From Alphaproteobacteria bacterium (GTDB lineage: Bacteria; Pseudomonadota; Alphaproteobacteria; MPNO01; UBA830): a DNA stretch of 64,000 bases. The notes below the pieces were generated by a model. That model was not told where the DNA came from and did no database searches. It saw nothing but the letters and a program-made list of their open reading frames with translations. The DNA lies in NCBI GenBank assembly GCA_964291215.2, contig OZ219791.1, forward strand, positions 1,248,001-1,312,000. Direction: 5' to 3'. Positions 21,581-64,000 of this stretch are shown piece after piece (the stretch's first letter is position 1; each line of letters starts with the position of its first letter). The translations under genes were made by a program, and so were the position numbers.

Positions 21581-21979
21581 TCACGGCAGGGCGCCAGCGG
21601 CGCTGCGCTGCCGTGGCAACGAGGCGAGGAACCGGCTCCGCGACACCAGCATGCGCTCGTGGGTGCCGTGCGCGATTTCGCGGGTGCCGGCGCGGGCAAA
21701 GACGTTGAACGTGATGCGCCGGCCTGCGACGGCGGTGATGACCGCCTCGCAGTGCAGGGACTCCCCGGCCGCGGCGTCACCCCAGAACCAGATGTCGTTG
21801 GAGTGTCCGACGCTGGCATCGTCGGCGGCGTAGTGCGGCGCCAGGACGTTGTGGCACGCCATCTCGCAGAACAGGTGCAGGGTCATCGTCGGCAGCAAGC
21901 CATCCACGAGGTCGCTTCCTTCGAGCTTGCGCGACTTGCTGGCGGTCATCCCGACGGTGTATTCGGGCCAGCCGCTCAC
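21581..21979 (-). CDS. FlK-like hot-dog fold thioesterase
   Basis: L..FCEMAC, SVG, GRRITFNV.A..EIAHGTHER. GTG start overlaps the upstream TGA. Confidence 0.7.
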   Translation of the reverse strand: MSGWPEYTVGMTASKSRKLEGSDLVDGLLPTMTLHLFCEMACHNVLAPHYAADDASVGHSNDIWFWGDAAAGESLHCEAVITAVAGRRITFNVFARAGTREIAHGTHERMLVSRSRFLASLPRQRSAAGALP

Positions 21980-22320
21980 GGATCGAGGACCCGTATGACC
22001 TGGCCGGACACGATGGTGCGGCGCGAATCCTCGCCCTCGATCTCGAACACCAGGCGACCGCCGTCGGTTTCCGCAAGACGCGCGCACACCTCCACCGTGT
22101 CGCCGACCGGGGTTGCGGCGAGATGGCGGATGTCGACCCGCATCCGCCTCGTGGGTTCGGCGCCGGCGCGCTCGCAGGCGTCCTTTGCTGCCCGGTCGCA
22201 GAACTCGGCGAGAACCGGCGTGGCGAGGACATGTATGTCGGGATTGCCGAGCGCGTGCGCGGTATCGGGCTCCTCGACCCGCGACCGCCACGTGCCGACC
22301 TGTCCGCGATCCAGACTCAT
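21976..22320 (-). CDS. FlK-like hot-dog fold thioesterase
   Basis: DTAHALG..VLATP, HLAATPVG, GRLVFEI. Confidence 0.75.
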   Translation of the reverse strand: MSLDRGQVGTWRSRVEEPDTAHALGNPDIHVLATPVLAEFCDRAAKDACERAGAEPTRRMRVDIRHLAATPVGDTVEVCARLAETDGGRLVFEIEGEDSRRTIVSGQVIRVLDP

Positions 22321-23339
22321 GGCCGCTGATAGCGGATCAGCCCGTCCGTGCTTCTCCGGCGGTGAAGCCGGCCGGCGCTGACCAGGCGGTTGAGGTGGGC
22401 AAGCGTCTCGCCGATCGCGAAGCTGTAATCGTCGGGGGCGATGTCACGGTCGAACAGGAACGGAATGACCTCGTCGGCCGTCCGCGGTTCGGCGCAGACC
22501 GCAAGCGCGGTCTCGAGCCGCGCCTCGTGATGGTCGCGCAGTTCCGCGATGCGGCCATGAATGCCGTGAAAGGGATAGCCGTGAGACGGCAGCACCAGCG
22601 TCCGGTCCGAGATGGCGCCGAACTTGGCGAAGCTCTCCAGATAGTCGCCGAGCGGATCGCCCTCCGGCTCGGTGTACCAGAGGCTGATGTTCGACGTGAT
22701 CCGGGGCAATATCTGGTCGCCGGAGATCAGGATGTCGAGTCCGGCGCACCACAGCGACGCGTGTTCGTGGGTGTGGCCGCCGGCAGTGATGACGCGCCAG
22801 GAATGATCGCCGATCAGGATGTCTTCGCCGTCCCTGATCCGCCGGACGGTCTGCGGAATGCTGTGCCAGGGCTCGTCGAGGCGGTTGAGGAAGGTCCTGA
22901 AACCGTCCGTCTTCTGCGCCGATGCGCCGTTTTCGACGAAAAACTCGTCCCAGCGCTCGAAGTCATGGGTGAGCTGGCGTGACCGCGCAAGGTGGGCTTG
23001 GAGCCATTCCGAATAGGTCATCCACAGCGACGCCCCGAACTCGGCTGCAAACCAGCCCGCCAGCCCCATGTGATCGGGATGGAAATGGGAGCAGATCACG
23101 CGCGCCGCCGCGCCGCCGCCGGCAATTTCGCCCAGCACCCGCTTCCAGATGCCGCGGGTTGCGGCGCTGTTGTAGCCGGCGTCGATGACCGTCCAGCCGT
23201 CGCCGTCGGCGAGCAGCCACAGGTTGATGTGGTCGAGCGCGAACGGTAGCGGCATGCGGATCCAGTGGACGCCGTCGACGACCTCGAGTGTCTGGCCGTC
23301 TTCCAGCCGGGGGAACGGGTAGTCGGGTTGGTAGGCCAT
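22317..23339 (-). CDS. MBL-fold metallo-hydrolase
   Basis: PLPFALDHIN, SHFHPDHMG, GGHT..H, SGDQILP, PSHG. Confidence 0.9.
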   Translation of the reverse strand: MAYQPDYPFPRLEDGQTLEVVDGVHWIRMPLPFALDHINLWLLADGDGWTVIDAGYNSAATRGIWKRVLGEIAGGGAAARVICSHFHPDHMGLAGWFAAEFGASLWMTYSEWLQAHLARSRQLTHDFERWDEFFVENGASAQKTDGFRTFLNRLDEPWHSIPQTVRRIRDGEDILIGDHSWRVITAGGHTHEHASLWCAGLDILISGDQILPRITSNISLWYTEPEGDPLGDYLESFAKFGAISDRTLVLPSHGYPFHGIHGRIAELRDHHEARLETALAVCAEPRTADEVIPFLFDRDIAPDDYSFAIGETLAHLNRLVSAGRLHRRRSTDGLIRYQRP

Positions 23340-23346
23340 GCTCCGG

Positions 23347-24186
23347 TCAGTCTCGCGGGGCGCCGGACACTGCCGTCGCTCCAGATTCGCCACAATTCGG
23401 AATGAGAAACTCGCGTATGCGCTTGATGATGTGTACAGCATCTTCGAGATGCGGGAAATGTCCGAGCCCGTCGATGAGGTCGATCTCGGCATGCCCCACC
23501 GCCGCCGCGATGCTCTCGAGCTGGCTCGGAAGCCCGTAGGCGTCCTCGGTTCCCTGGATGGCGAGAAGCGGCACCCTGATCGACGAGATCTCGTCTCCGA
23601 TGTCCCAGTCGTCATAGAGCGTGCGCTGCCACGTCTTCGCCCAGAGCAGAATCAGGTGCCGTGCGCGGTCGCCGTGGAACCGCGGCATCCAGTCGGGAAT
23701 GTCGCCGTCCTCGGCCATCTTCTGGTGGCGCAGCACCTGTCCGAGGGTCAAGCTGTCGCGCCGGACATGGGCGGCGAGGGTCACGATCGCACGCACCCGC
23801 CCGTGATGCCGCGCGCCGTGCAGCAGCGCCACCGTGCCGCCGTCGGAATGGCCGACGAGGCAGCAATCGGCGATTCCGGCGGCGTCGAGGACGCTTTCGA
23901 GCCGGTCCGCCTCGGCGCCCATGAAGTCGTCGGGGAAGTCGCCGACCTCGTCCGAGCGTCCATAGCCGAGCCGGTCATAGGCGAAGGCGGGAAGGTCGAG
24001 GGCCGCGCTGAGGCGCGCGGGAAATTTCCTGAGCGTCCCGATGCTGCCGAGCCCGTCATGAAGGAACACCAGGACCGGCCGCCGCCCGGCGCGCGGCCCG
24101 TGCCAGGCGCCGAAGATGCGGTGGCCGCCGACGTCGAGCCGGACGGTTTCCGGACTTTCGCTGGACGGGCTGGAAGTTGCGGGCAT
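23347..24186 (-). CDS. Alpha/beta hydrolase
   Basis: FLHDGLGS, YDRLGYG, GHSDGG nucleophile elbow, GHFPH. Confidence 0.88.
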   Translation of the reverse strand: MPATSSPSSESPETVRLDVGGHRIFGAWHGPRAGRRPVLVFLHDGLGSIGTLRKFPARLSAALDLPAFAYDRLGYGRSDEVGDFPDDFMGAEADRLESVLDAAGIADCCLVGHSDGGTVALLHGARHHGRVRAIVTLAAHVRRDSLTLGQVLRHQKMAEDGDIPDWMPRFHGDRARHLILLWAKTWQRTLYDDWDIGDEISSIRVPLLAIQGTEDAYGLPSQLESIAAAVGHAEIDLIDGLGHFPHLEDAVHIIKRIREFLIPNCGESGATAVSGAPRD

Positions 24187-24207
24187 TGGCAGGCTTGGCT
24201 GGCACGG

Positions 24208-25185
24208 TCAGCTGTAGCAGCCGGCCTCGCGGGCGCGCTGCCGGATCAGGGCAAGGACGGCGTCTATCGACGGGGTCTCGATACCGGTCATCCGCCCCAT
24301 TTCCTGGACCGCGGTCACCAGTGCGTCGATCTCCATCGGCCGCCCGCGCTCGAGATCCTGGAGCATCGATGTCTTGTGGGCGCCGACCTCGACCGCTCCC
24401 CTGATCCGGTGGTCGACATCGACCGAGAACCGGACGCCGAGGGCCTCACCGATGTTCTGCGCCTCGCGCATCATGCACCGCGCCACCTCGCGGGTGCCGG
24501 CGTCGGTACCGATGGTCTCGAGCGTGGCCCCGGTGAGTGCGCTGATCGGGTTGAAGGACAGGTTGCCCCACAGCTTGATCCAGATCTCGTTGCGGATCTG
24601 CGGCCGCACCGGCGCCTTGAAGCCGGCAGCGATCAGGAGCTCCGACAGCTGCCGGACGCGCGGCGTCCGCTCGCCGGACGGCTCGCCGAGCGAGAACCGG
24701 TTGCCCTCGACATGCCTGATTACCCCGGGCTCGATGACCTCGGCGGCCGGATAGACGACACAGCCGATCATGCGCTCGGGGCCGAGCCTGTCCCACAGCG
24801 CACCGTCGGGGTCGAGGCAGCTGATGCGGCAGTCGCGAAAGGCGCCGTCGAGGCCGTAGAAATACCACCACGGGACCCCGTTCACGCCCCACACCACCGC
24901 GGTTTGCTCATCGAAGAGCTCCGCGATCCGGTCCGCGACCGGCGGCACGGAGTGCGCCTTCAGGGTGACAAACACGTAGTCCTGCGGTCCGGCCTCCGCG
25001 GGATCCTCGAATGCCGAAACCGGCACCTGCTCGCGCTCCTCACCGGAGACCAGGACAAGGCCGCCCGCCTGCATGGCCTCGAGATGCGGCCCCCGCGCGA
25101 TCAGGGTTACCTTGGCGCCGTGGCGCGCCAGCCCGGCGCCGAGATAGCCGCCGATGGCGCCGGCGCCATAGATGCAGATGCGCAC
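24208..25185 (-). CDS. 2-dehydropantoate reductase family, probable oxalyl-CoA reductase
   Basis: GAGAIGG, NGVPWWYF, IWIKLWGN, HKTSMLQD; adjacent to oxalate-CoA ligase-like gene. Confidence 0.8.
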   Translation of the reverse strand: MRICIYGAGAIGGYLGAGLARHGAKVTLIARGPHLEAMQAGGLVLVSGEEREQVPVSAFEDPAEAGPQDYVFVTLKAHSVPPVADRIAELFDEQTAVVWGVNGVPWWYFYGLDGAFRDCRISCLDPDGALWDRLGPERMIGCVVYPAAEVIEPGVIRHVEGNRFSLGEPSGERTPRVRQLSELLIAAGFKAPVRPQIRNEIWIKLWGNLSFNPISALTGATLETIGTDAGTREVARCMMREAQNIGEALGVRFSVDVDHRIRGAVEVGAHKTSMLQDLERGRPMEIDALVTAVQEMGRMTGIETPSIDAVLALIRQRAREAGCYS

Positions 25186-43634: not shown

Positions 43635-45566
43635 CAGACTTCTATAGGTGATTGGTTTCGTGCATGCTGCAGGTCGGTCTCCGCCATTTCGATTCACGGA
43701 CACCTGACTGGTTCGCTGGCGCGTTGTGCTCTGCCGACGCCACCCGTCACGGTCTGGCTCGCGAGCTTTGCGAGCGCACCGGCTGGCGCAACGCGCCTGG
43801 TCGTCCGTGCCTGTCGGCGGCAGGTGCTGCCGGCGCTCGCCGAGCGCGTGGGTCTCGAGCTGCCGCGGCGCGTCCCCGATCGTCGTGCCCGCCGTCCCGT
43901 CCGATGACGCTCGCCTGCCTGCTGCAGGATCTCGGCCCGGTCTCGCCGGTGGGCGGCACCGACGATCGCCGGCTCCGGGAGGCGATGATGGCGACGCACC
44001 ACCCGCCGGGACGGGCGCCCCGGCGGCCAGATGCGGGTCCGCCACCACGGCACGCGGCTTCGGGTCCGCAACCTGGCGGGCGCGGGACAAGTGGATGGTC
44101 TGCCGACGCCCGCGCCGCCAACATCAGGCGCGTGATCTGCCATCATCGGTTTCTTCCCGGCGTCCGGGTCTGCGGGCTGGGGTCCTGCGCATGGCGGCGG
44201 AGCGCGTCGCCGACGACCGGGAGGCCCGCGGTGCGTCCAGTGGCGGCCTGTACTCATGTCGGCGCGGAGCGGTTACCGCTGCCACTGCGCCGGCCGGACT
44301 GTCGCCGGGCGCGGGCGCCGCGGCGAGGGGTCCTGGCGCTGGAGAGCGGCTGGCGCTCCAGGAGACAGGGCGACATCCACTCGGCGCCCTGACGGGCGCC
44401 TGTGACGGCACTGACGCGGACCGGGAGTACGGGCCGACGGGCGGCGGCCATCGTTGACATGGGCCCGGATGGAGAACATGGGGGAGGATCTGCCGGTCAT
44501 CTTTCCGGAGAAGGCGGAGCAGAAGGCCGCCTGCTGTCGAACCCGAGGATCTCCATGGAGCACGTTCTGGAGGCGCATGTCGAGGCGCCCGTCGAGCGTT
44601 GTCGGACAGAGCCTCTTGCGATACAGGACACGACGGCACTCAACTGCAGCGGCCCGGGGTCGACGAAGGGTCCGGACGGGGGCGGCAAGGGGAGTGTCGG
44701 CATTCTCGCCGGTCTGGCGGTGACGCCGGAGGGCCGGCCCCCGGGCCTGATGGACGCGGCCTTCCGGCAGGAGCCTGGGGAGGACAGCCGGCGCCGGGCG
44801 GGCACGGGAGCCCGCGGCGGCCTGCCCGGACACGCGGGTGGTCTGCGAGGGCGACTTCCGGGAGCTGCGGACACCGGGACCGCGCTGCTGGTGCGCGCGA
44901 GCCAGCGCGTGCGGACGGCAACGAGGCGTGCCTGCGGGAGCATGTCGCGGCCCGTGACGGAGCTGACGATCCCGGCGGCCCGCGCGCCCGCAAGGAGCGC
45001 GTTGTCCGTCTCGAGATCCGCACAGGTGGCGCCGCCGCACCGCGAGGGCGACGCCTGTTTCCATGTTTGCGGCCAGCGAGACGGCGACGAGGCGCTGCTG
45101 ACCACCGAGCGCCCGGCGCAAGCGGAGGCCGTGCATGCGGCGACCGGCTGGTACCGGACGCGCATCGAGACCTGGTTCCGCACGCTGAAGACCCGGATCA
45201 AGGACCGCCGGCGGGCCGACGACCTGAAGAAGTGCCTCGCCGTCCATGTCCTGACCGTCCTCGCGCGGGAGCATCCCTCGACCTCGGCGAGCGAGGTGTT
45301 TGCGGAGGAGGACATCGGCCTGCTCCACACGCTGCCGGAAGCGCAGGGTCATCGCAACGTCGTGAGGATGGCGGACGGGAAGGCGCCCGACATCAGGGCG
45401 GTGGTCATCGATCTCGGACGCCTCGTCGGATCGCATCTTGCCGCCCGGCAATCGCTCCCGGGAACGAAGAAGGTCTGGCGGGGTCTCGAGCGGCTGCACC
45501 GGGCGATCCAAGTGCGCGACGCACTCGGCGAGAGAAGGCGGGAATGAGATACCTAATATAAGTGTG
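43635..45566 (+). mobile_element. DUF4338 (DruA-like) plus IS4/IS50 transposase element, copy B, heavily eroded
   Basis: LARELCERTGWRN, GWSADARAANI..HRFLPGVRV, LLSNPRISMEHVLEAH, AIQDTT.LN, WY..RIETWFRTLK, PGTKKVWRGL; imperfect TIR CAGACTTCTATAGGT / ACCTAATATAAGTGTG. Confidence 0.72.
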
Positions 45567-52012: not shown

Positions 52013-53017
52013 ATGAAAGTGAATATCAGCCAGATCGCCGCGGTGGTTTGCGGGGCCGCGCTGCTGCTTGCGCCGGTTGCGGCGTTCGCGGAGACGATCA
52101 TGAAGATCGGTTTCGTGACGATCAATGACGGCCAGCACAAATCCGCGAACTGGATTCAGAAGGAAGTCGAGAAGCGGACCGGCGGCTCGATCAAGGTCAA
52201 GGTCTTTCCGGCCGCGCAGCTCGGCAAGATCCCGCGCCAGATCGAGGGCGTCCTGTTGGGCACCCAGGAGGCGTTCATCTCGCCGCCCGGATTCTTCGTC
52301 GGCCTCAACAAGGCGTTCATGGCCCCCGACGCGCCCGGCCTGTTCAAGGATTTCGCGCACCAGACGGCGGTTTTGAACCACCCGAAGGTCCGCGACAAAT
52401 TCCTCAATCTCGGAACCTCGAAGGGCGTCACCGGGGCCTATGTCGTGTGTGCCGGCTCTTCGGCGCTTGCCATGCGCGATCCGGTGCGCAAGCTCGCCGA
52501 CGTCCAGGGCAAGAAGATCCGGGTGCTGGCCTCGCCCATGGAGGTCGCGATCATGAGGCAGCTCAAGGCGGCGGGTACCCCGATGGCATATTCCGAGGTT
52601 CTTCCGGCAATCCAGCGCCGCGTGCTCGACGGTGCGAGCTCTGCGATCGTGGTCATGGGGCCGTCGAAATTCTACACCGCGGCGAAGTACCTCACGCCGA
52701 CCAACTTCACCTTCATCCCGAGCGCGATGTGGACCAGCGCCAGGTGGCTTGCCAAGCTCTCCGAGAAGGAGCGCGACATCCTCATGCAGGTCGGCCGTGA
52801 GGTGACGCCGATGGCCAACAAGTGGTCGGAGGACGACACCGCGAAGTGGGAGAAGAAATGGGGCGAGGAGGGCGGCACCGTGATCCGGCTCGACGAGAAG
52901 GAGCGTCTCGCGGCGCTCGAGAAGCTGCGACCCCTCGGCGACGAGATCTTCCTCAAGGATCCCGCCATCGCGCCGATGTACAAGCTGCTGAAGGCAGTGG
53001 CCAAGGAAACGATGTAG
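52013..53017 (+). CDS. TRAP transporter substrate-binding protein (DctP family)
   Basis: Signal peptide; KVFPAAQLG, GKKIRV, PMAYSEV..AIQ..VLDG. Confidence 0.9.
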   Translation: MKVNISQIAAVVCGAALLLAPVAAFAETIMKIGFVTINDGQHKSANWIQKEVEKRTGGSIKVKVFPAAQLGKIPRQIEGVLLGTQEAFISPPGFFVGLNKAFMAPDAPGLFKDFAHQTAVLNHPKVRDKFLNLGTSKGVTGAYVVCAGSSALAMRDPVRKLADVQGKKIRVLASPMEVAIMRQLKAAGTPMAYSEVLPAIQRRVLDGASSAIVVMGPSKFYTAAKYLTPTNFTFIPSAMWTSARWLAKLSEKERDILMQVGREVTPMANKWSEDDTAKWEKKWGEEGGTVIRLDEKERLAALEKLRPLGDEIFLKDPAIAPMYKLLKAVAKETM

Positions 53018-53103: not shown

Positions 53104-53799
53104 TCAGGCGAGCCAGGTCGTGAACGCGTCGACATCGATGCGTTCGGGCTGAAACCGGTTGACGCCGGCGCCGTCGTCCGACCATCCGATGCTCATGCCG
53201 CCGATCAGCGTGTGGTCGGCGCCGATGCCGAACATCCGGTGCGCGACATGCGGGTACATGCCGAGCGCGCCCTGCGCGGTTGCCGCCAGCCCCCAGCCCT
53301 GCGCCGACAGCACGATGGAATGGATGAAGGTGCCGTAATCGAGCCACGAGCCGTGCTCGAGATCGGCCAAGATCCAGAACAAGAGGCCGGTTCCGGCGCC
53401 GAAGAACTCAAAATTCCGCCGCATCGCCCGGCGCCGCCCCGCGCGGTCGTCGCGGGCGACGCCCATCGCGTCATAGAGGCCGTAGCCGCAGGCGCGCCGG
53501 CGCGCGAGGAATGGCTCGCGCCAGTTCGGTGGGTAGTAGTGATACTCCATGTCCGCGCTCTCGCCGGCCTCCTCGGCGGCCAGCAGGGCGCGGCTGTAGC
53601 GGCGCAAGCTCTCGCCATTGAGGATGTGCACCTTCCAGGGCTGGATGTTGGAGCCGGACGGTGCCCATCGCGCTGCCTCAAGGATGCGGCGCATGACCGC
53701 GTCGGGAACGGGTTCGGGACGGAACGCCCGGATCGAGCGCCGCGACAGGATTGCGTCCTCGACATGAACGTCCGGACGCTCTAGCCCGGGATCGGTCAT
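53104..53799 (-). CDS. Nitroreductase family protein
   Basis: SRRSIRAF, APSGSNIQPW, NFEFFGA, WLDYG.F. Confidence 0.9.
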   Translation of the reverse strand: MTDPGLERPDVHVEDAILSRRSIRAFRPEPVPDAVMRRILEAARWAPSGSNIQPWKVHILNGESLRRYSRALLAAEEAGESADMEYHYYPPNWREPFLARRRACGYGLYDAMGVARDDRAGRRRAMRRNFEFFGAGTGLLFWILADLEHGSWLDYGTFIHSIVLSAQGWGLAATAQGALGMYPHVAHRMFGIGADHTLIGGMSIGWSDDGAGVNRFQPERIDVDAFTTWLA

Positions 53800-53874
53800 G
53801 TGCCGGCGCCGTTCGGCGGCGATCCGGGCTGGCGTGGGCGGTGCGGGGCCGGTCATCTCTGGTGCCCGGTGGTT

Positions 53875-54120
53875 TCAGGTGCCGACCGAGGGCGTCGGCG
53901 GCAGCCGGCCGCGCCACTTGATCCAGTTGAAGCTCGTGTCGCAGCTGCGGCAGCGGAACATGACCTCGGAAGCCGCGCCTCCGAAGAGCGAGAGCACCTC
54001 AAGGCCGCAGGATCCACAGTCGGGGCAGGACACGCCGTCGAAATCCGGGTCGCCGGAATGAAGCTCGCGATGGCGCGCGGCATAGCCGCCGCTCCGCCCG
54101 GCTCCGCGCTCAGTGGGCAA
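53875..54120 (-). CDS. Stand-alone PaaD-like zinc-ribbon protein
   Basis: CPDCGS..SLFGGAAS..FRCRSC..F.W.K; TTG start overlapping the upstream gene. Confidence 0.7.
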   Translation of the reverse strand: MPTERGAGRSGGYAARHRELHSGDPDFDGVSCPDCGSCGLEVLSLFGGAASEVMFRCRSCDTSFNWIKWRGRLPPTPSVGT

Positions 54121-54889
54121 GCTCGGCGTCCTTGAAGCGGACGACATTGAACAGCCCGTCGGGTAGCGGACCGGTCCGCCGCGCGTCCTCGCGCCAGTCG
54201 GCGCCGACGCTGACCGGGGTTTCATGGTCAAGCGGAGCGCCCAGCATTTCCGAAGCCTGCGCCGCCTCCTTGACGAAGGCGCTGCGCAGCGCGCTCAGCC
54301 GCACGTCGCGGAGCTCGGCCTTGAAAACCGGGTCCTGTCCCCGCGGCGGCCCGAACCAGGCCAGGGCCAGCGGGAAGCGGCGGGCATAGGCTTTCTGGAA
54401 ACGGGCCGTCGTCGCCTTCGCCTCGCCGATGATGCGGAACCAGCCGTGGGCGTATTTGAGGTGGAAATAGGCTTCCTCCCCGATCTTCTTGGTCAGGCCC
54501 GAGACAACGCGGTCGGAATGGTTGAGAAAGCCCGAGGCGAGCATCCAGGTCGCGAGTTCGGCGAGCCAGGTACTGACGATGAAATCCTCCCAGTTCGCCG
54601 GCGCATCGTCGAGGAGGTTCATCGCGTGGATGTCCTCGGGGCCGCGGCCGCGCTCAAGATGGACATAGCCGCGGCCATGCGCCGCGAGGTACTGGTAGAT
54701 TGCGCGGGTGTGGCCGTAATTGGCGGTGCACATGCCGAGGATCGCCGCGAAATCCGGCAGCGAGCGCCCGTTCATCACGCATTCCGCGTACCAGTTGCCG
54801 AGCACGAGCTTGGTGTCGGCAATGGCCAGCAGGTCGTTCTCGAATTCCGCATGCAGTCTGGTGCCCGGAGTCCCGGGTTCATAGGTCAT
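54110..54889 (-). CDS. PaaC-like ferritin-fold subunit
   Basis: LLAIAD..LVLG, YGH.R, KKI.EEAYFH. Confidence 0.75.
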   Translation of the reverse strand: MTYEPGTPGTRLHAEFENDLLAIADTKLVLGNWYAECVMNGRSLPDFAAILGMCTANYGHTRAIYQYLAAHGRGYVHLERGRGPEDIHAMNLLDDAPANWEDFIVSTWLAELATWMLASGFLNHSDRVVSGLTKKIGEEAYFHLKYAHGWFRIIGEAKATTARFQKAYARRFPLALAWFGPPRGQDPVFKAELRDVRLSALRSAFVKEAAQASEMLGAPLDHETPVSVGADWREDARRTGPLPDGLFNVVRFKDAELAH

Positions 54890-54916
54890 CTGACGCTGTC
54901 TCCATGTTGCGGGGCC

Positions 54917-55189
54917 TCAGCCCATCTTGATCTTGGCCGACTTGCCCTCTTCGGTGACGGTGATGATCGCGTCGAGCGGCACGACGCACATTTCCCGCCA
55001 GTGGTGCTGATCGTAGATGTACCATGCGCGCACCTTGGCAAGTTCGTCGTTGGGCGCCTCGACGGATCCGACATGCGACAGGTCGGACTCGGAATCGCGG
55101 CGCGCGAACACTTCGTAGTATTTGGGACTGGTCCCGCCACGCTCGCGCAGCTGGTTGATCTTCTTTCTGCGAATCGCCTGTACCGCCAT
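54917..55189 (-). CDS. PaaB-like small subunit
   Basis: YEVFAR..HVGSVEAPNDELA..A..Y..VVP..I. Confidence 0.78.
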   Translation of the reverse strand: MAVQAIRRKKINQLRERGGTSPKYYEVFARRDSESDLSHVGSVEAPNDELAKVRAWYIYDQHHWREMCVVPLDAIITVTEEGKSAKIKMG

Positions 55190-55206
55190 CGTTTTCCTCG
55201 CGCTCT

Positions 55207-55539
55207 TCAGACCTGTATGCCGTTGGTCCGCATCATTTCCTGCACCTCGGGCTCGATCATTTCGCGCGACCATGGAAGGTGCCAACCTTCCTCGACCACG
55301 ACCCCGCTGACGCCGTCGAGCGCCATCACCGCGTCGCGTATCGAGTCGCGCAGCATGCCGGCACCGGGGCAGCCCATGCACGGGATGCAGACCGCCACGC
55401 GCACGGTGCCGTCGTCCGCGATGTCGATGTCGCGCAGCATCCCCATGCGCCGGAGGCTGACCGGCACGTGAGGATCGTTGACCGTCTCGAGCGCGGCAGT
55501 GACATCGTCTCGGGATGGCGGTGGAGGCGCGGCGGCCAT
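55207..55539 (-). CDS. DUF59/FeS_assembly_P protein (PaaD N-terminal-like)
   Basis: L.TV.DP..PVS...MG, GCPG, PWS. Confidence 0.8.
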   Translation of the reverse strand: MAAAPPPPSRDDVTAALETVNDPHVPVSLRRMGMLRDIDIADDGTVRVAVCIPCMGCPGAGMLRDSIRDAVMALDGVSGVVVEEGWHLPWSREMIEPEVQEMMRTNGIQV

Positions 55540-55562
55540 GGCGGGATCGTAGCCCTACGCCG

Positions 55563-56516
55563 TTACCAGAGGTCGTTGCCCCAGACCTCGGAGAGCACGC
55601 GGCTGATCGAGGGCACCTTGTGCTTCGAGCCCCGCTTCCAGATCTCGATCTGCTCTTCCCAGCTGATCGTCGTGGCGTAGTCCCAGGTGCGGGTTTCCTC
55701 GTCGAGGGCGATCGGGGGTTCGTAGTCGAGTACGTATCGGCCTTCGTCCTCATCCCAGTGGGCGGGGACCTTGATGCCGACGCTCTCCGAGAACGGGACG
55801 ATGCGCGAGAGCCATTTCTGGCGCATCTCGTCGTTGGAGGCGCCGCGGATACGGTAGCGGATCTGGTCGGTCCGGGTCTTCAGGTGATCGGGCAGGCCGA
55901 ACCAGGCGGCACAGAGCGGAAAATAGAAATCCACCGATTCCTGCACGCGCCGCCGGGCCGCCTCCGAGTGGTTCCAGAAAAACCGCACCCAGCGCTCGCC
56001 GTGGCTCACGTGGAAGGTCTCTTCGTAATTGACCTTGCGGAGCGAGCGGGCAAACGGAGCGTAGGAGCAATTCTCCTCGAGATCGACTGTCGTGATGTAG
56101 CCAGCACGGTCGCCGTAGCACATCGAGACGACGGATTCGATGTAGTCCTCGTGGGGAAATTCCAGCATCTGAAAGGTTCGCCACTCCTCGGGATCGCGCT
56201 CGAACAGGAACCTGTGCGTGTCGTATCCGAAATCCTCGAGGATGCGGTACATCATCTGCGCGTGTCCGAGCTCGTCCTGGCAGGCGGCGGCGATCGCAAT
56301 CTTGTCCTCGAGCGTCGGCGATGTCCTGATCGCCGGCGAATAGGTGGGCAGGGTGACGACCTCGAGATCGGCGGCGATGTGGATGGTGTTGACCAGCACG
56401 TTGCGGTAGCGCGGGGTCATCTCCTCGACATCTTCGAGCTTCTGCCCCGACGCCACGCGCTCCTGCAGGGCGCGCTCGCGCGGATCTTCCCGTTTGTCCT
56501 TGACTGCTGCGTCCAT
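55563..56516 (-). CDS. PaaA-like diiron oxygenase subunit
   Basis: PTLEDK, QDELGH, SY.P.AR.L..V..EETFH, RQKW. Confidence 0.82.
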   Translation of the reverse strand: MDAAVKDKREDPRERALQERVASGQKLEDVEEMTPRYRNVLVNTIHIAADLEVVTLPTYSPAIRTSPTLEDKIAIAAACQDELGHAQMMYRILEDFGYDTHRFLFERDPEEWRTFQMLEFPHEDYIESVVSMCYGDRAGYITTVDLEENCSYAPFARSLRKVNYEETFHVSHGERWVRFFWNHSEAARRRVQESVDFYFPLCAAWFGLPDHLKTRTDQIRYRIRGASNDEMRQKWLSRIVPFSESVGIKVPAHWDEDEGRYVLDYEPPIALDEETRTWDYATTISWEEQIEIWKRGSKHKVPSISRVLSEVWGNDLW

Positions 56517-56550
56517 CTTGCTCCTGCTCCCGTCTGTCGTGATTGGTGGT

Positions 56551-57216
56551 CTAGCCGCGCCGTTCCGCAGCGACGCCGTCAATGACGAAGTCGCGGAACG
56601 CCCTGGCGAAATCGTGGCCGTCGAGACCGCGGCCGCGCATGTACCATTCGACGTAGCACCCCTTGTTGAGCGCCATGATTACGCTCGTGATCTCGTCGGC
56701 GCCGATACCGTTGCGGAACACGCCGCCGGCCTGGCCCGACTGCACCGTTTCGCGCAGCGCGTTTTCCATCCGCGCCATCATTTCCTGGAGGCGGACCTCC
56801 GTGCTTTCGCCCGAGCCATTGAATTCCGCACTCATCAGAATCGCGAGAAGCATGTACTCCGTCTTTTCGGCTCCGATGACGGACTGGGTGCGGATGAAGG
56901 CACCCAGGCGTTCGCTCGGGTCCATGCCGGCGTCGCCCATGGCGGCGATCGTGGGCTCAACGATCAACGCCTCGGCGCGGTCGAGCAGAGCTTCGAGCAG
57001 CATCGACTTGCTGCGGAAGTAGAAATACACCGCGCCCTTGGTCAGGCCCGCGGACTGCGCTATTTCCTCGACGGTGGTCGCATGATAGCCCTGCGTGATG
57101 AACAGCGTCAGCGCCGCCGACAGCAGGGATTCGATGCTTGCGGCCCGCTGTTCGCGCTTGGTCAGCGGCCGCGTGCGTTCCAGAACTTGGTCGGCGATTT
57201 GTGTCGTGTCGTCCAT
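56551..57216 (-). CDS. TetR-family regulator
   Basis: LF..QGY.ATTVEEIA..AGLTKGAVYFYF.SK. Confidence 0.9.
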   Translation of the reverse strand: MDDTTQIADQVLERTRPLTKREQRAASIESLLSAALTLFITQGYHATTVEEIAQSAGLTKGAVYFYFRSKSMLLEALLDRAEALIVEPTIAAMGDAGMDPSERLGAFIRTQSVIGAEKTEYMLLAILMSAEFNGSGESTEVRLQEMMARMENALRETVQSGQAGGVFRNGIGADEITSVIMALNKGCYVEWYMRGRGLDGHDFARAFRDFVIDGVAAERRG

Positions 57217-57322
57217 GGCAGAGCGGATGGCCCAAGCATCGTGAAGCCCACGCGTTTCACATACTGATCAGACAGTATCTTCAATTCGTAGCCGTCGCAA
57301 GCCCGTCCCGGCGCGTCGGGCT

Positions 57323-63079: not shown

Positions 63080-64000
63080 CGGCAGGGTGATCACCCGCGC
63101 TGCACACGACGCCGGCGACGCTGATCACCCGGCGCTGCGGCGCAGACCATGTCTTCCCGGTCAAGGGCGCCCGAAACCTTCGACGGCATCGACCGGGAGA
63201 CGGATGCCACCGGCCGCTTCAAGGAGGAGTTCGACAAGGCCTACGGACGCCTCGAGCAGCGCTCGATACGTGCCGCTCGAGGATCTGATCAACTACCCCG
63301 GCGTCAGCCCACGGTGATCCCACGCTGCTAATCCGGCGACGACTGGCGAGATTTTTATAGTTTGCGTCGCGGTGCAATCGTGCCGCCAAGGCTCGATGGG
63401 ACCTTCTCGGCACGAAAATTGCGATCAAGGAGGCGATCTGTGATGATCCGAGCCCCAACGCATTCGGATTTCGCGTCTCCGAATTAGCATGGGATCGTCA
63501 TGCGTCAGCCAGATCGCCCGTATCAAGCGCTACCGCGAGCCGCTGGGAAAGAGCGTCAGCGGCGCAGCGAGCGGCAACGACCACACCGGTACATCATCAC
63601 CCGCTCGATGCGCAACACGCGTCGCCAGAGGAACTTCTGCGGCCGCGGGCCGTGGAAAACATGAACCACCGAGACTGCGTCTTCGGCGAACACGTCTGCC
63701 TGACACGCCCTGCAAACCGCGCCAGCCTCAACAACATCGCGCTCACGGTGATCTTCGCCAACCGACGCGAGAACCTCGCCGAAACACGACGGCGGCTCGA
63801 CCGCCGGGAAGCCGTCGCAGCCCTGAGCGCCAATGGTGTCCGGCCGATTCCCGGACGCCGCCCACAACCCGCCCACATTCCGAAAACAACCCGCCGATAA
63901 CGCCGCCAGCGACGACCGCGGACGGCCCCGAAGCCAGAAAACCCGGCACGCCGTGAAACCTCCGGACAGCAGAAGACAGCAAAATTGAATGCAGCGTGGG
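63080..64000 (+). mobile_element. ISAs1-family transposase remnant and 3' end, truncated by window edge
   Basis: KAYGRLEQRSI, YPGVSQIARIKR, VENMNH.RDCVFGE, NRASLNNIAL; 3' end ..GAATGCAGCGTGGG matches the MITE A terminus. Confidence 0.72.
63310..63502. mobile_element. MITE family B (193 bp) inserted in the ISAs1 remnant
   Basis: Imperfect TIR CACGGTGATCCCACGCTGCTAATCCGGCGAC / GTCTCCGAATTAGCATGGGATCGTCATG; 8-bp TSD CGTCAGCC; removal restores YPGVSQIARIKR. Confidence 0.8.

What the first reader, a model, noticed from the sequence alone, without database searches (positions are those of the whole stretch)
53104..57216. Divergent, rearranged PaaABCD-like diiron oxygenase cluster with split PaaD and no PaaE
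Seen: co-oriented TetR, PaaA-like, DUF59, PaaB-like, PaaC-like, Zn-ribbon and nitroreductase genes. Established: canonical phenylacetyl-CoA epoxidase is paaABCDE, with DUF59 and Zn-ribbon in one PaaD and a PaaE reductase. Here PaaD is two separated genes and the DUF59 part is Cys-rich (CIPCMGCPG). The PaaA-like protein keeps DELGH/EETFH iron ligands, but its substrate-facing N-terminus (NTIHIAADLEVV) differs from canonical IGQHAHSEIVG. No CoA ligase, PaaG or PaaZ is adjacent. Inference: an uncharacterised oxygenase for another substrate, perhaps using the nitroreductase as electron donor. Best candidate for a new system in this window.
Basis: partly seen in the sequence, partly recalled or inferred. 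Interest (0 to 1): 0.7.

Follow-up and report, generated by a model that had tools for sequence, protein, structure and literature searches.

The report
Divergent aryl-CoA oxygenase captured by phages
These genes encode a sister branch of the phenylacetate ring-opening iron enzyme that likely attacks a different, benzoate-like aromatic compound, and ocean phages carry intact copies of its predicted catalytic subunit and of one small helper protein.

Summary
Observation confirmed. The PaaA-like protein keeps all six iron ligands and the PaaA fold, but is 26% identical to E. coli PaaA, lacks the lysine bridge and forms a sister clade outside canonical PaaA. The order A-DUF59-B-C-Zn ribbon holds in 27 of 27 GTDB loci and recurs in Agrobacterium and haloarchaea. 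A split PaaD without reductase is not unique: canonical haloarchaeal paa has it. The nitroreductase is dispensable, so unlikely the donor. Relatives place CoA ligases, a dedicated crotonase and UbiD decarboxylases beside the operon. A palindrome before tetR recurs before boxC/boxB in 17 of 17 family box loci and 0 of 20 outside, so the operon is likely co-regulated with benzoyl-CoA epoxidation. Best reading: an epoxidase for a substituted or heteroaromatic benzoyl-type CoA ester; substrate not determined. Unexpected: 24 IMG/VR phage loci carry subunit A, many amid T4-like genes, some also the DUF59 gene, under strong purifying selection; B, C and the Zn ribbon were not found in those fragments. 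The scan met this enzyme family before in another genome (e1-2872730); no note on phage copies came up.

The parts
57259..57280 (.). Palindrome ATACTG-N6-CAGTAT, predicted TetR operator over the promoter
   Evidence: Found upstream of tetR in 54 of 55 loci with enough flank; position
56551..57216 (-). TetR-family regulator, predicted repressor of this operon and of boxCB
   Evidence: PF00440; present in the same 30 of 78 genomes of the order as subunit A
55563..56516 (-). Subunit A: diiron oxygenase, sister clade to PaaA; ligands E52, E82, H85, D136, E166, H169
55207..55539 (-). D1: DUF59 half of PaaD with DPH...CxPCxGCP motif; predicted iron-loading or maturation partner of A
   Evidence: PF01883; motif conserved in cells and phages; co-carried with A by phages
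54917..55189 (-). Subunit B: PaaB-like bridging subunit
   Evidence: PF06243 31.3 bits; TIGR02157 below cut-off
54110..54889 (-). Subunit C: PaaC-like structural subunit lacking most iron ligands
   Evidence: PF05138; 20% to E. coli PaaC; ligand positions
53875..54120 (-). D2: Zn-ribbon half of PaaD (CPDC...CRSC), inferred TTG start overlapping C
   Evidence: PF23451; starts in relatives
53104..53856 (-). Nitroreductase (NfnB-like), accessory and dispensable
52013..53017 (+). TRAP solute-binding protein DctP, convergent, a conserved neighbour in the family
   Evidence: NF037995 over cut-off; synteny

Best explanation
The operon encodes a PaaABC-type diiron oxygenase of a separate, uncharacterised clade that likely epoxidises the ring of a substituted or heteroaromatic benzoyl-type CoA ester rather than phenylacetyl-CoA, and it is likely switched on together with the benzoyl-CoA (box) pathway. 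Steps: (1) an aromatic acid enters by TRAP/ABC transport and is activated by a CoA ligase, in some hosts after UbiD decarboxylation (inferred from neighbours); (2) the aryl-CoA releases TetR from the palindrome before tetR and before boxC (inferred); (3) A, held by C and B, uses O2 and two electrons at a diiron site (ligands and fold shown; activity inferred); (4) D1 loads or repairs the iron site of A, D2 assists (inferred); (5) electrons come from an unlinked ferredoxin/reductase, as they must for BoxB in this genome, where no BoxA was found (inferred); (6) the epoxide is opened by the dedicated crotonase in most relatives, or by BoxC in this genus, which lacks that crotonase (inferred, weakest step). 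T4-like marine phages carry A and sometimes D1 (shown), likely to keep the host complex working during infection (inferred).
For: Six ligands kept in 124-125 of 125 core-clade rows, K68 in none of them against 38 of 42 canonical rows. AlphaFold model pLDDT 91.8, best match PaaA TM 0.81, BoxB 0.57. Sister clade 99/92, canonical clade 100/100; joining it to proteobacterial PaaA rejected, p-AU 3.6e-14. Two of 5 genomes tested hold both it and a PaaA over cut-off. No PaaA or PaaK over cut-off in 26 of 26 family genomes, BoxB in 23 of 26. Ligase directly after D2 in L030, L032, L034, L106, L108, L123; benzoate-CoA-ligase-family genes over cut-off in L034 and the Thermus cluster. Crotonase orthologue at 70% or more in 22 of 78 genomes, all A-positive. 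Operator: second-best genome site 34.7 bits lies before boxC, next 14.5; 17 of 17 family box loci, 0 of 20 outside; no BoxR-type second shikimate-kinase domain found. Phage copies.
Against: No substrate, activity or binding was measured. Several CoA-contact positions differ from PaaA (R33 to N, Q37 to I, N132 to T), so CoA binding is inferred from neighbours only. The window's genome has no orthologue of the crotonase (best 38%) or of either operon ligase (best 33%). The ligase most often fused into the operon is FadD/feruloyl-CoA-synthetase-like, not benzoate-type, and MaoC plus aldehyde dehydrogenase neighbours in L032/L108 resemble a split PaaZ, which fits an arylacetyl substrate. Five TetR-positive genomes outside the family lack the site at boxC, and G001 has the site although neither TetR nor A was found in it (93% complete). 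The matrix was trained on the tetR sites, so the 54 of 55 count is partly circular.
Confidence: 0.5

Rival explanations
1. It is a non-orthologous stand-in for phenylacetyl-CoA epoxidase, or acts on a substituted arylacetyl/arylalkanoyl-CoA, with a PaaG/PaaZ-like lower pathway.
For: None of 26 family genomes has canonical PaaA, so the niche is open; same subunit set as Paa; split PaaZ-like MaoC plus aldehyde dehydrogenase near L032 and L108; FadD-like ligases in the operon.
Against: No PaaK over cut-off in 26 genomes; coexists with canonical PaaA in 2 of 5 genomes tested; F108, K68, E49, R33 changed; shared palindrome with boxC.
Confidence: 0.22
2. It is a second benzoyl-CoA epoxidase, an isoenzyme of BoxB for another oxygen or iron regime.
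For: Shared palindrome with boxC-boxB-ligase; the Thermus member (39-40% identical) sits with a benzoate-CoA ligase at 591 bits, crotonases, aldehyde dehydrogenases and a thiolase.
Against: BoxB is already present in 23 of 26 family genomes; pocket positions differ between the window's subclade and the Thermus/haloarchaeal subclade; the window's subclade keeps its own crotonase.
Confidence: 0.13
3. The diiron site hydroxylates or desaturates rather than epoxidises, possibly on a non-CoA substrate, and phages use A plus D1 as a stand-alone enzyme for their own ends.
For: Phage copies lack B, C and D2 in the fragments searched and often sit among nucleotide-metabolism and 2OG-Fe oxygenase genes; lysine bridge and some CoA contacts are lost.
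Against: Phage proteins are 75-84% identical to the cellular A with the same residues at nearly all pocket positions checked; E. coli PaaA is insoluble without PaaC (PMC4498308); cellular neighbours are CoA-pathway genes across bacteria and archaea.
Confidence: 0.1
4. One reading: the nitroreductase is the dedicated electron donor replacing PaaE.
For: It follows D2 in 16 of 26 GTDB loci and is a flavoprotein family member.
Against: Missing from 10 of 26 loci, from G003 (99% complete, intact operon) and from the Azospirillum, Agrobacterium, Thermus and haloarchaeal clusters; some haloarchaeal clusters carry a 2Fe-2S ferredoxin instead.
Confidence: 0.08

Closest known systems
PaaABC(D)E phenylacetyl-CoA 1,2-epoxidase (E. 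coli, Klebsiella; PDB 3PW8, 4IIT)
   Same: Subunits A, B, C, DUF59 and Zn-ribbon domains; six iron ligands; fold TM 0.81
   Different: 26% identity; lysine bridge K68/E49 and F108 lost; order A-D1-B-C-D2; no PaaE, PaaG, PaaK, PaaZ; separate clade
Haloarchaeal canonical paa cluster (NCBIfam NF041868 paad_haloarch, NF041869 paae_haloarch)
   Same: PaaD split into a DUF59 gene and a 55-aa Zn-ribbon-sized gene, no reductase gene in the cluster
   Different: Its A is canonical (K68, E49, F108 kept), order A-B-C-D1-D2, 28% identical to the window's A
BoxABC benzoyl-CoA epoxidase pathway (Azoarcus; PDB 3PM5)
   Same: Diiron aryl-CoA chemistry; boxCB is in the same genome behind a matching palindrome
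   Different: BoxB is a single 475-aa chain, TM 0.57; known control is BoxR at TGCA boxes (PMC6449761), a different motif
Phage auxiliary metabolic genes for a host complex's catalytic subunit (psbA, pmoC; recalled, not tested here)
   Same: Phages carry the catalytic subunit without the rest of the complex
   Different: Here an aromatic-catabolism oxygenase subunit plus a DUF59 partner; no PHROG family at E 1e-10

Membership tests
PaaA phenylacetyl-CoA epoxidase subunit A | TIGR02156 score over 280 | tested here: not met
   123.6 bits
PaaA phenylacetyl-CoA epoxidase subunit A | Iron ligands E42, E72, H75, D126, E155, H158 | tested here: met
PaaA phenylacetyl-CoA epoxidase subunit A | Lysine bridge K68/E49 and substrate-orienting F108 | tested here: not met
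   A78, T58/Y59, L119
PaaA phenylacetyl-CoA epoxidase subunit A | Nests in the clade of characterised PaaA | tested here: not met
PaaA phenylacetyl-CoA epoxidase subunit A | PaaA fold | tested here: met
   Predicted model, TM 0.81 to 3PW8
Paa pathway | PaaE reductase, PaaK, PaaG, PaaZ in the genome | tested here: not met
   Best matches 27%, 30%, 40%, 26-28%; PaaK model 229 bits against cut-off 646
Paa pathway | Epoxidation of phenylacetyl-CoA | not testable with these tools
   Needs an assay
BoxB benzoyl-CoA epoxidase | TIGR03225 over cut-off, about 475 aa | tested here: not met
   No TIGR03225 hit for A; the genome's BoxB is a separate gene
Aryl-CoA diiron epoxidases in the wide sense (works like PaaABC/BoxB) | CoA-ester substrate, judged by linked ligase and crotonase genes | tested here: inconclusive
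   Met in relatives, not in the window's own locus or genome
Phage auxiliary metabolic gene | Host-derived gene flanked by viral hallmark genes, intact and under purifying selection | tested here: met
Phage auxiliary metabolic gene | Expressed and active during infection of a known host | not tested
   Host not identified; no infection data examined

The most novel reading that the evidence does not exclude
A third family of CoA-dependent ring epoxidases, beside PaaA and BoxB, opens an abundant marine (hetero)aromatic acid in a common uncultured alphaproteobacterial family, and this flux matters so much during infection that several T4-like phage lineages keep the catalytic subunit and its DUF59 iron-loading partner; the co-capture would identify A, not the reductase, as the client of PaaD-type proteins.
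Probability: 0.35. Interest if true: 0.82.

Novelty: new variant of a known kind. Interest (0 to 1): 0.66.

Why it matters
Many of these proteins carry the name PaaA or PaaC in public annotation, so phenylacetate catabolism is probably over-called in marine and soil metagenomes, and a separate aromatic pathway is hidden under the label. The clade is near-fixed in one marine family (24 of 26 genomes) but rare in a phylum sample (1 of 400). Phage carriage points to a substrate that is worth energy or carbon during infection. The role of PaaD is an open question (needed in vivo, not in vitro; client PaaA or PaaE unknown; PMC4498308); a system without PaaE in which D1 follows A and is co-carried by phages makes it directly testable.

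Tried and rejected
Complex prediction A with D1 gave no verdict (score 0.00), which is neither for nor against binding. PhgA (NIH-shift hydroxylase) as a relative: the passages read (PMC11848710) describe a three-gene system and gave no link. Furoyl-CoA as substrate: one UbiD in L032 matches PDB 6H6V at 482 bits (that 6H6V is HmfF is recalled), but it occurs in one locus only and the palindrome lies before the second UbiD, so it is kept only as a candidate. The crotonase motif DPH-x8-D resembles a beta-diketone hydrolase dyad (recalled; one search found no paper to check it). Frameshift or fusion of C and D2: rejected, relatives have ATG, GTG or TTG starts overlapping the C stop. Scans of viral contigs with subunit C and with BoxB found no relative (close-relative patterns only). 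INPHARED gave two hits at 23% annotated paaA on records of 330-380 kb, not followed up. Metatranscriptomes: 20 RNA runs of 18 study codes hold half or more of a relative's operon (L059) and contigs cover it, but runs were chosen by that stretch and may contain DNA, so this is weak evidence only. The ESM Atlas returned only PF05138 clusters. The second palindrome in the actinobacterial genome (L214) had no evident catabolic gene beside it and its control also matched once. Literature: searches listed no paper on this clade or gene order (search 133 was swamped by its general terms and is uninformative); PMC9554406 mentions one PaaA and four PaaD calls in freshwater viromes without clade detail; PMC11360552 has no paaA in its main text and only one small supplement was held, so its AMG tables could list K02609. 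Most subscription journals are not in the library.
Full report
Observation. The seven genes lie on the minus strand as described. Every Paa-like protein falls below the NCBIfam cut-off of its canonical model (A 123.6 of 280; B 27.9 of 85; C 27.2 of 133). The Zn-ribbon gene has no ATG; a TTG at 54120 overlaps the end of C and follows AAGGA, and relatives show overlapping ATG, GTG or TTG starts. A 22-base palindrome lies at 57259-57280, just upstream of tetR.

Subunit A. It is 26% identical to E. coli PaaA, whereas proteobacterial PaaA on plasmids are 64% or more identical to E. coli in the rows listed. Using the residues named in PMC4498308 (part 2 of 5 read), all six iron ligands are kept, while the lysine bridge (K68, E49) and F108 are not. 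In the FastTree set, the 125-row core clade has A or S at position 68 in every row and G at 125 in 124; the 42-row group holding characterised PaaA has K68 in 38. Smaller residues near the iron suggest a roomier pocket; this is read from alignment, not from coordinates. The AlphaFold model (pLDDT 91.8) matches PaaA at TM 0.81 and BoxB at 0.57. The IQ-TREE tree of 60 chosen rows, rooted on PaaC, gives canonical PaaA 100/100 and the new clade 99/92 as sisters. Forcing the new clade together with proteobacterial PaaA, to the exclusion of haloarchaeal PaaA, is rejected (p-AU 3.6e-14; 30 rows, simpler model, groups named after the tree was seen).

Distribution and gene order. A is found in 30 of 78 genomes of the order and 24 of 26 of the family, in exactly the genomes that hold the TetR, but in 1 of 400 genomes of a phylum sample. 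The order A-D1-B-C-D2 holds in 27 of 27 GTDB loci with enough flank and 55 of 66 cellular loci overall; seven exceptions are a paralogue with A-B-C only, four are Thermus or haloarchaeal loci where tblastn missed C or D2. Agrobacterium plasmids (53%), Thermus plasmids (39-40%) and haloarchaeal plasmids (34-50%) carry the same kind of cluster. A search with the Thermus member returned 4329 proteins at E 1e-40, so the wider clade is large.

What is not new. The canonical paa clusters of Haloferax volcanii and Haloarcula sinaiiensis also have a DUF59-only paaD followed by a 55-aa gene and no reductase; NCBIfam has models for both. PMC13186573 (passages read) reports partial epoxidase modules in Halobacteria and Bacilli.

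Electron donor. The nitroreductase follows D2 in 16 of 26 GTDB loci; its orthologue (67% or more) is in 18 of 26 family genomes and was not found in G003, 99% complete with an intact operon. The genome has BoxB but no BoxA over cut-off and no PaaE, so both diiron enzymes must draw on an unlinked reductase. Some haloarchaeal clusters include a 2Fe-2S ferredoxin.

Substrate clues. In relatives a crotonase follows the operon; its orthologue at 70% or more occurs in 22 of 78 genomes, all A-positive, and also in an actinobacterial locus (73%). It is missing from the window's genus (0 of 5) and from four other A-positive genomes. Ligases sit in the operon in L030, L032, L034, L106, L108 and L123; one type is FadD/feruloyl-CoA-synthetase-like, another passes the benzoate-CoA ligase family cut-off and is nearest to anthranilate- and benzoate-CoA ligases in the PDB. 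UbiD decarboxylases occur in L030, L032, L107, L108 and two haloarchaeal loci. No family genome has PaaA or PaaK over cut-off (0 of 26), 23 of 26 have BoxB, and 2 of 5 more distant genomes tested hold both this A and a canonical PaaA.

Regulon. A matrix built from the tetR-upstream sites finds one other strong site in the 6.15-Mb genome, 34.7 bits against 14.5 for the next, directly before boxC. In 17 of 17 box loci from 14 family genomes the top site of each stretch of 12-15 kb lies just before boxC or boxB (17-32 bits, next site 6 or less). In 20 box promoters from other families of the order, 5 with and 15 without the TetR, no such site is present (best 5.6 bits). The motif differs from the TGCA boxes of BoxR (PMC6449761, passages), and the genome shows only one shikimate-kinase domain. 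In Azospirillum and L107/L108 related sites precede the second UbiD, the transporter, A and the aldehyde dehydrogenase. Kin share promoters, so 17 of 17 is one evolutionary event, not 17. G001 has the site though TetR was not found in it. Binding is untested.

Phages. A profile-based scan of IMG/VR returned 24 loci at 75-84% identity to A; 32 further low-GC metagenome loci look alike. Flanks are T4-like hallmark genes: major capsid, UvsW, UvsY, late sigma factor, nrdAB, thymidylate synthase, lysozyme. At least four insertion contexts occur: after nrdB, after UvsW, after the lysis genes, before purC; several short loci show no marker. D1 lies within the flanks in 16 of these 56 loci, directly after A or 2.9 kb upstream, and 22 kb away in one record. 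B and D2 were found in none of the 56, and four larger records (15-44% complete) each hold one PF05138 gene and no B or D2; the fifth record asked for was not held. Among 12 phage copies, dN/dS is 0.07 or less in every pair where synonymous sites were not saturated. The four phage rows in the tree form one clade (100/100) inside a group with the window's family (95/84), which suggests one capture from that lineage or an unsampled relative; the host is not shown. PHROGs has no family for it at E 1e-10.

Mechanism and verdict. The protein works like a PaaABC aryl-CoA oxygenase but fails the PaaA membership tests. The likeliest substrate is a benzoyl-type CoA ester other than benzoyl-CoA (0.5), then an arylacetyl type including phenylacetyl-CoA (0.22), benzoyl-CoA itself (0.13), or other chemistry (0.1). 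D1 as maturase of A rests on its position, its DPH...CxPCxGCP motif, co-capture by phages and the suggestion in PMC4498308. A word search of the scan's notes for the phage link returned nothing. New variant of a known kind; interest 0.66.

Noticed in passing
window 21614-25122: FlK thioesterase, metallo-beta-lactamase-fold hydrolase, alpha/beta hydrolase and ApbA-like genes that directly follow the cluster in free-living relatives lie about 28 kb away here.
   Followed up: partly
L116-L119, L124-L126: A paralogue (61-66% to A) with only A-B-C and no D1/D2, beside TauD, TRAP, luciferase-like and Rieske O-demethylase genes; G012, G019 and G031 hold both types, and in G031 the palindrome precedes it.
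   Followed up: partly
G000:C2:2107954-2108694 (L005): Another stand-alone 246-aa ferritin-like PF05138 protein next to a crotonase; similar weak hits occur across the family.
   Followed up: no
G000 whole genome: About 30 tblastn hits to UbiD queries, two of them 60-66% identical to the UbiD of the Azospirillum cluster: a possible UbiD expansion.
   Followed up: no
L195, L197, L212: A second boxB copy (with a BoxA-like ferredoxin-NADP reductase in L195) lies among cbb3-oxidase maturation-like and stress genes and has the same palindrome; the copy in G007 is broken.
   Followed up: partly
L223-L236, upstream of boxC: Many other families of the order have a different palindrome there (ATTGTTGAC-N3-4-CAACAAT-like), pointing to an undescribed box regulator.
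   Followed up: no
L008 (G002): About 2.9 kb of extra DNA separates A from D1 in this genome.
   Followed up: no
L072 8794-9993; L102 10930-18768; L133 3876-4232: The same phages carry a glutaredoxin-NrdB fusion, purC and purM, and an AdoMet decarboxylase-like gene.
   Followed up: no
window 44273-45547 and 63489-64000: Transposase-like remnants with broken frames (seen in translations only).
   Followed up: no
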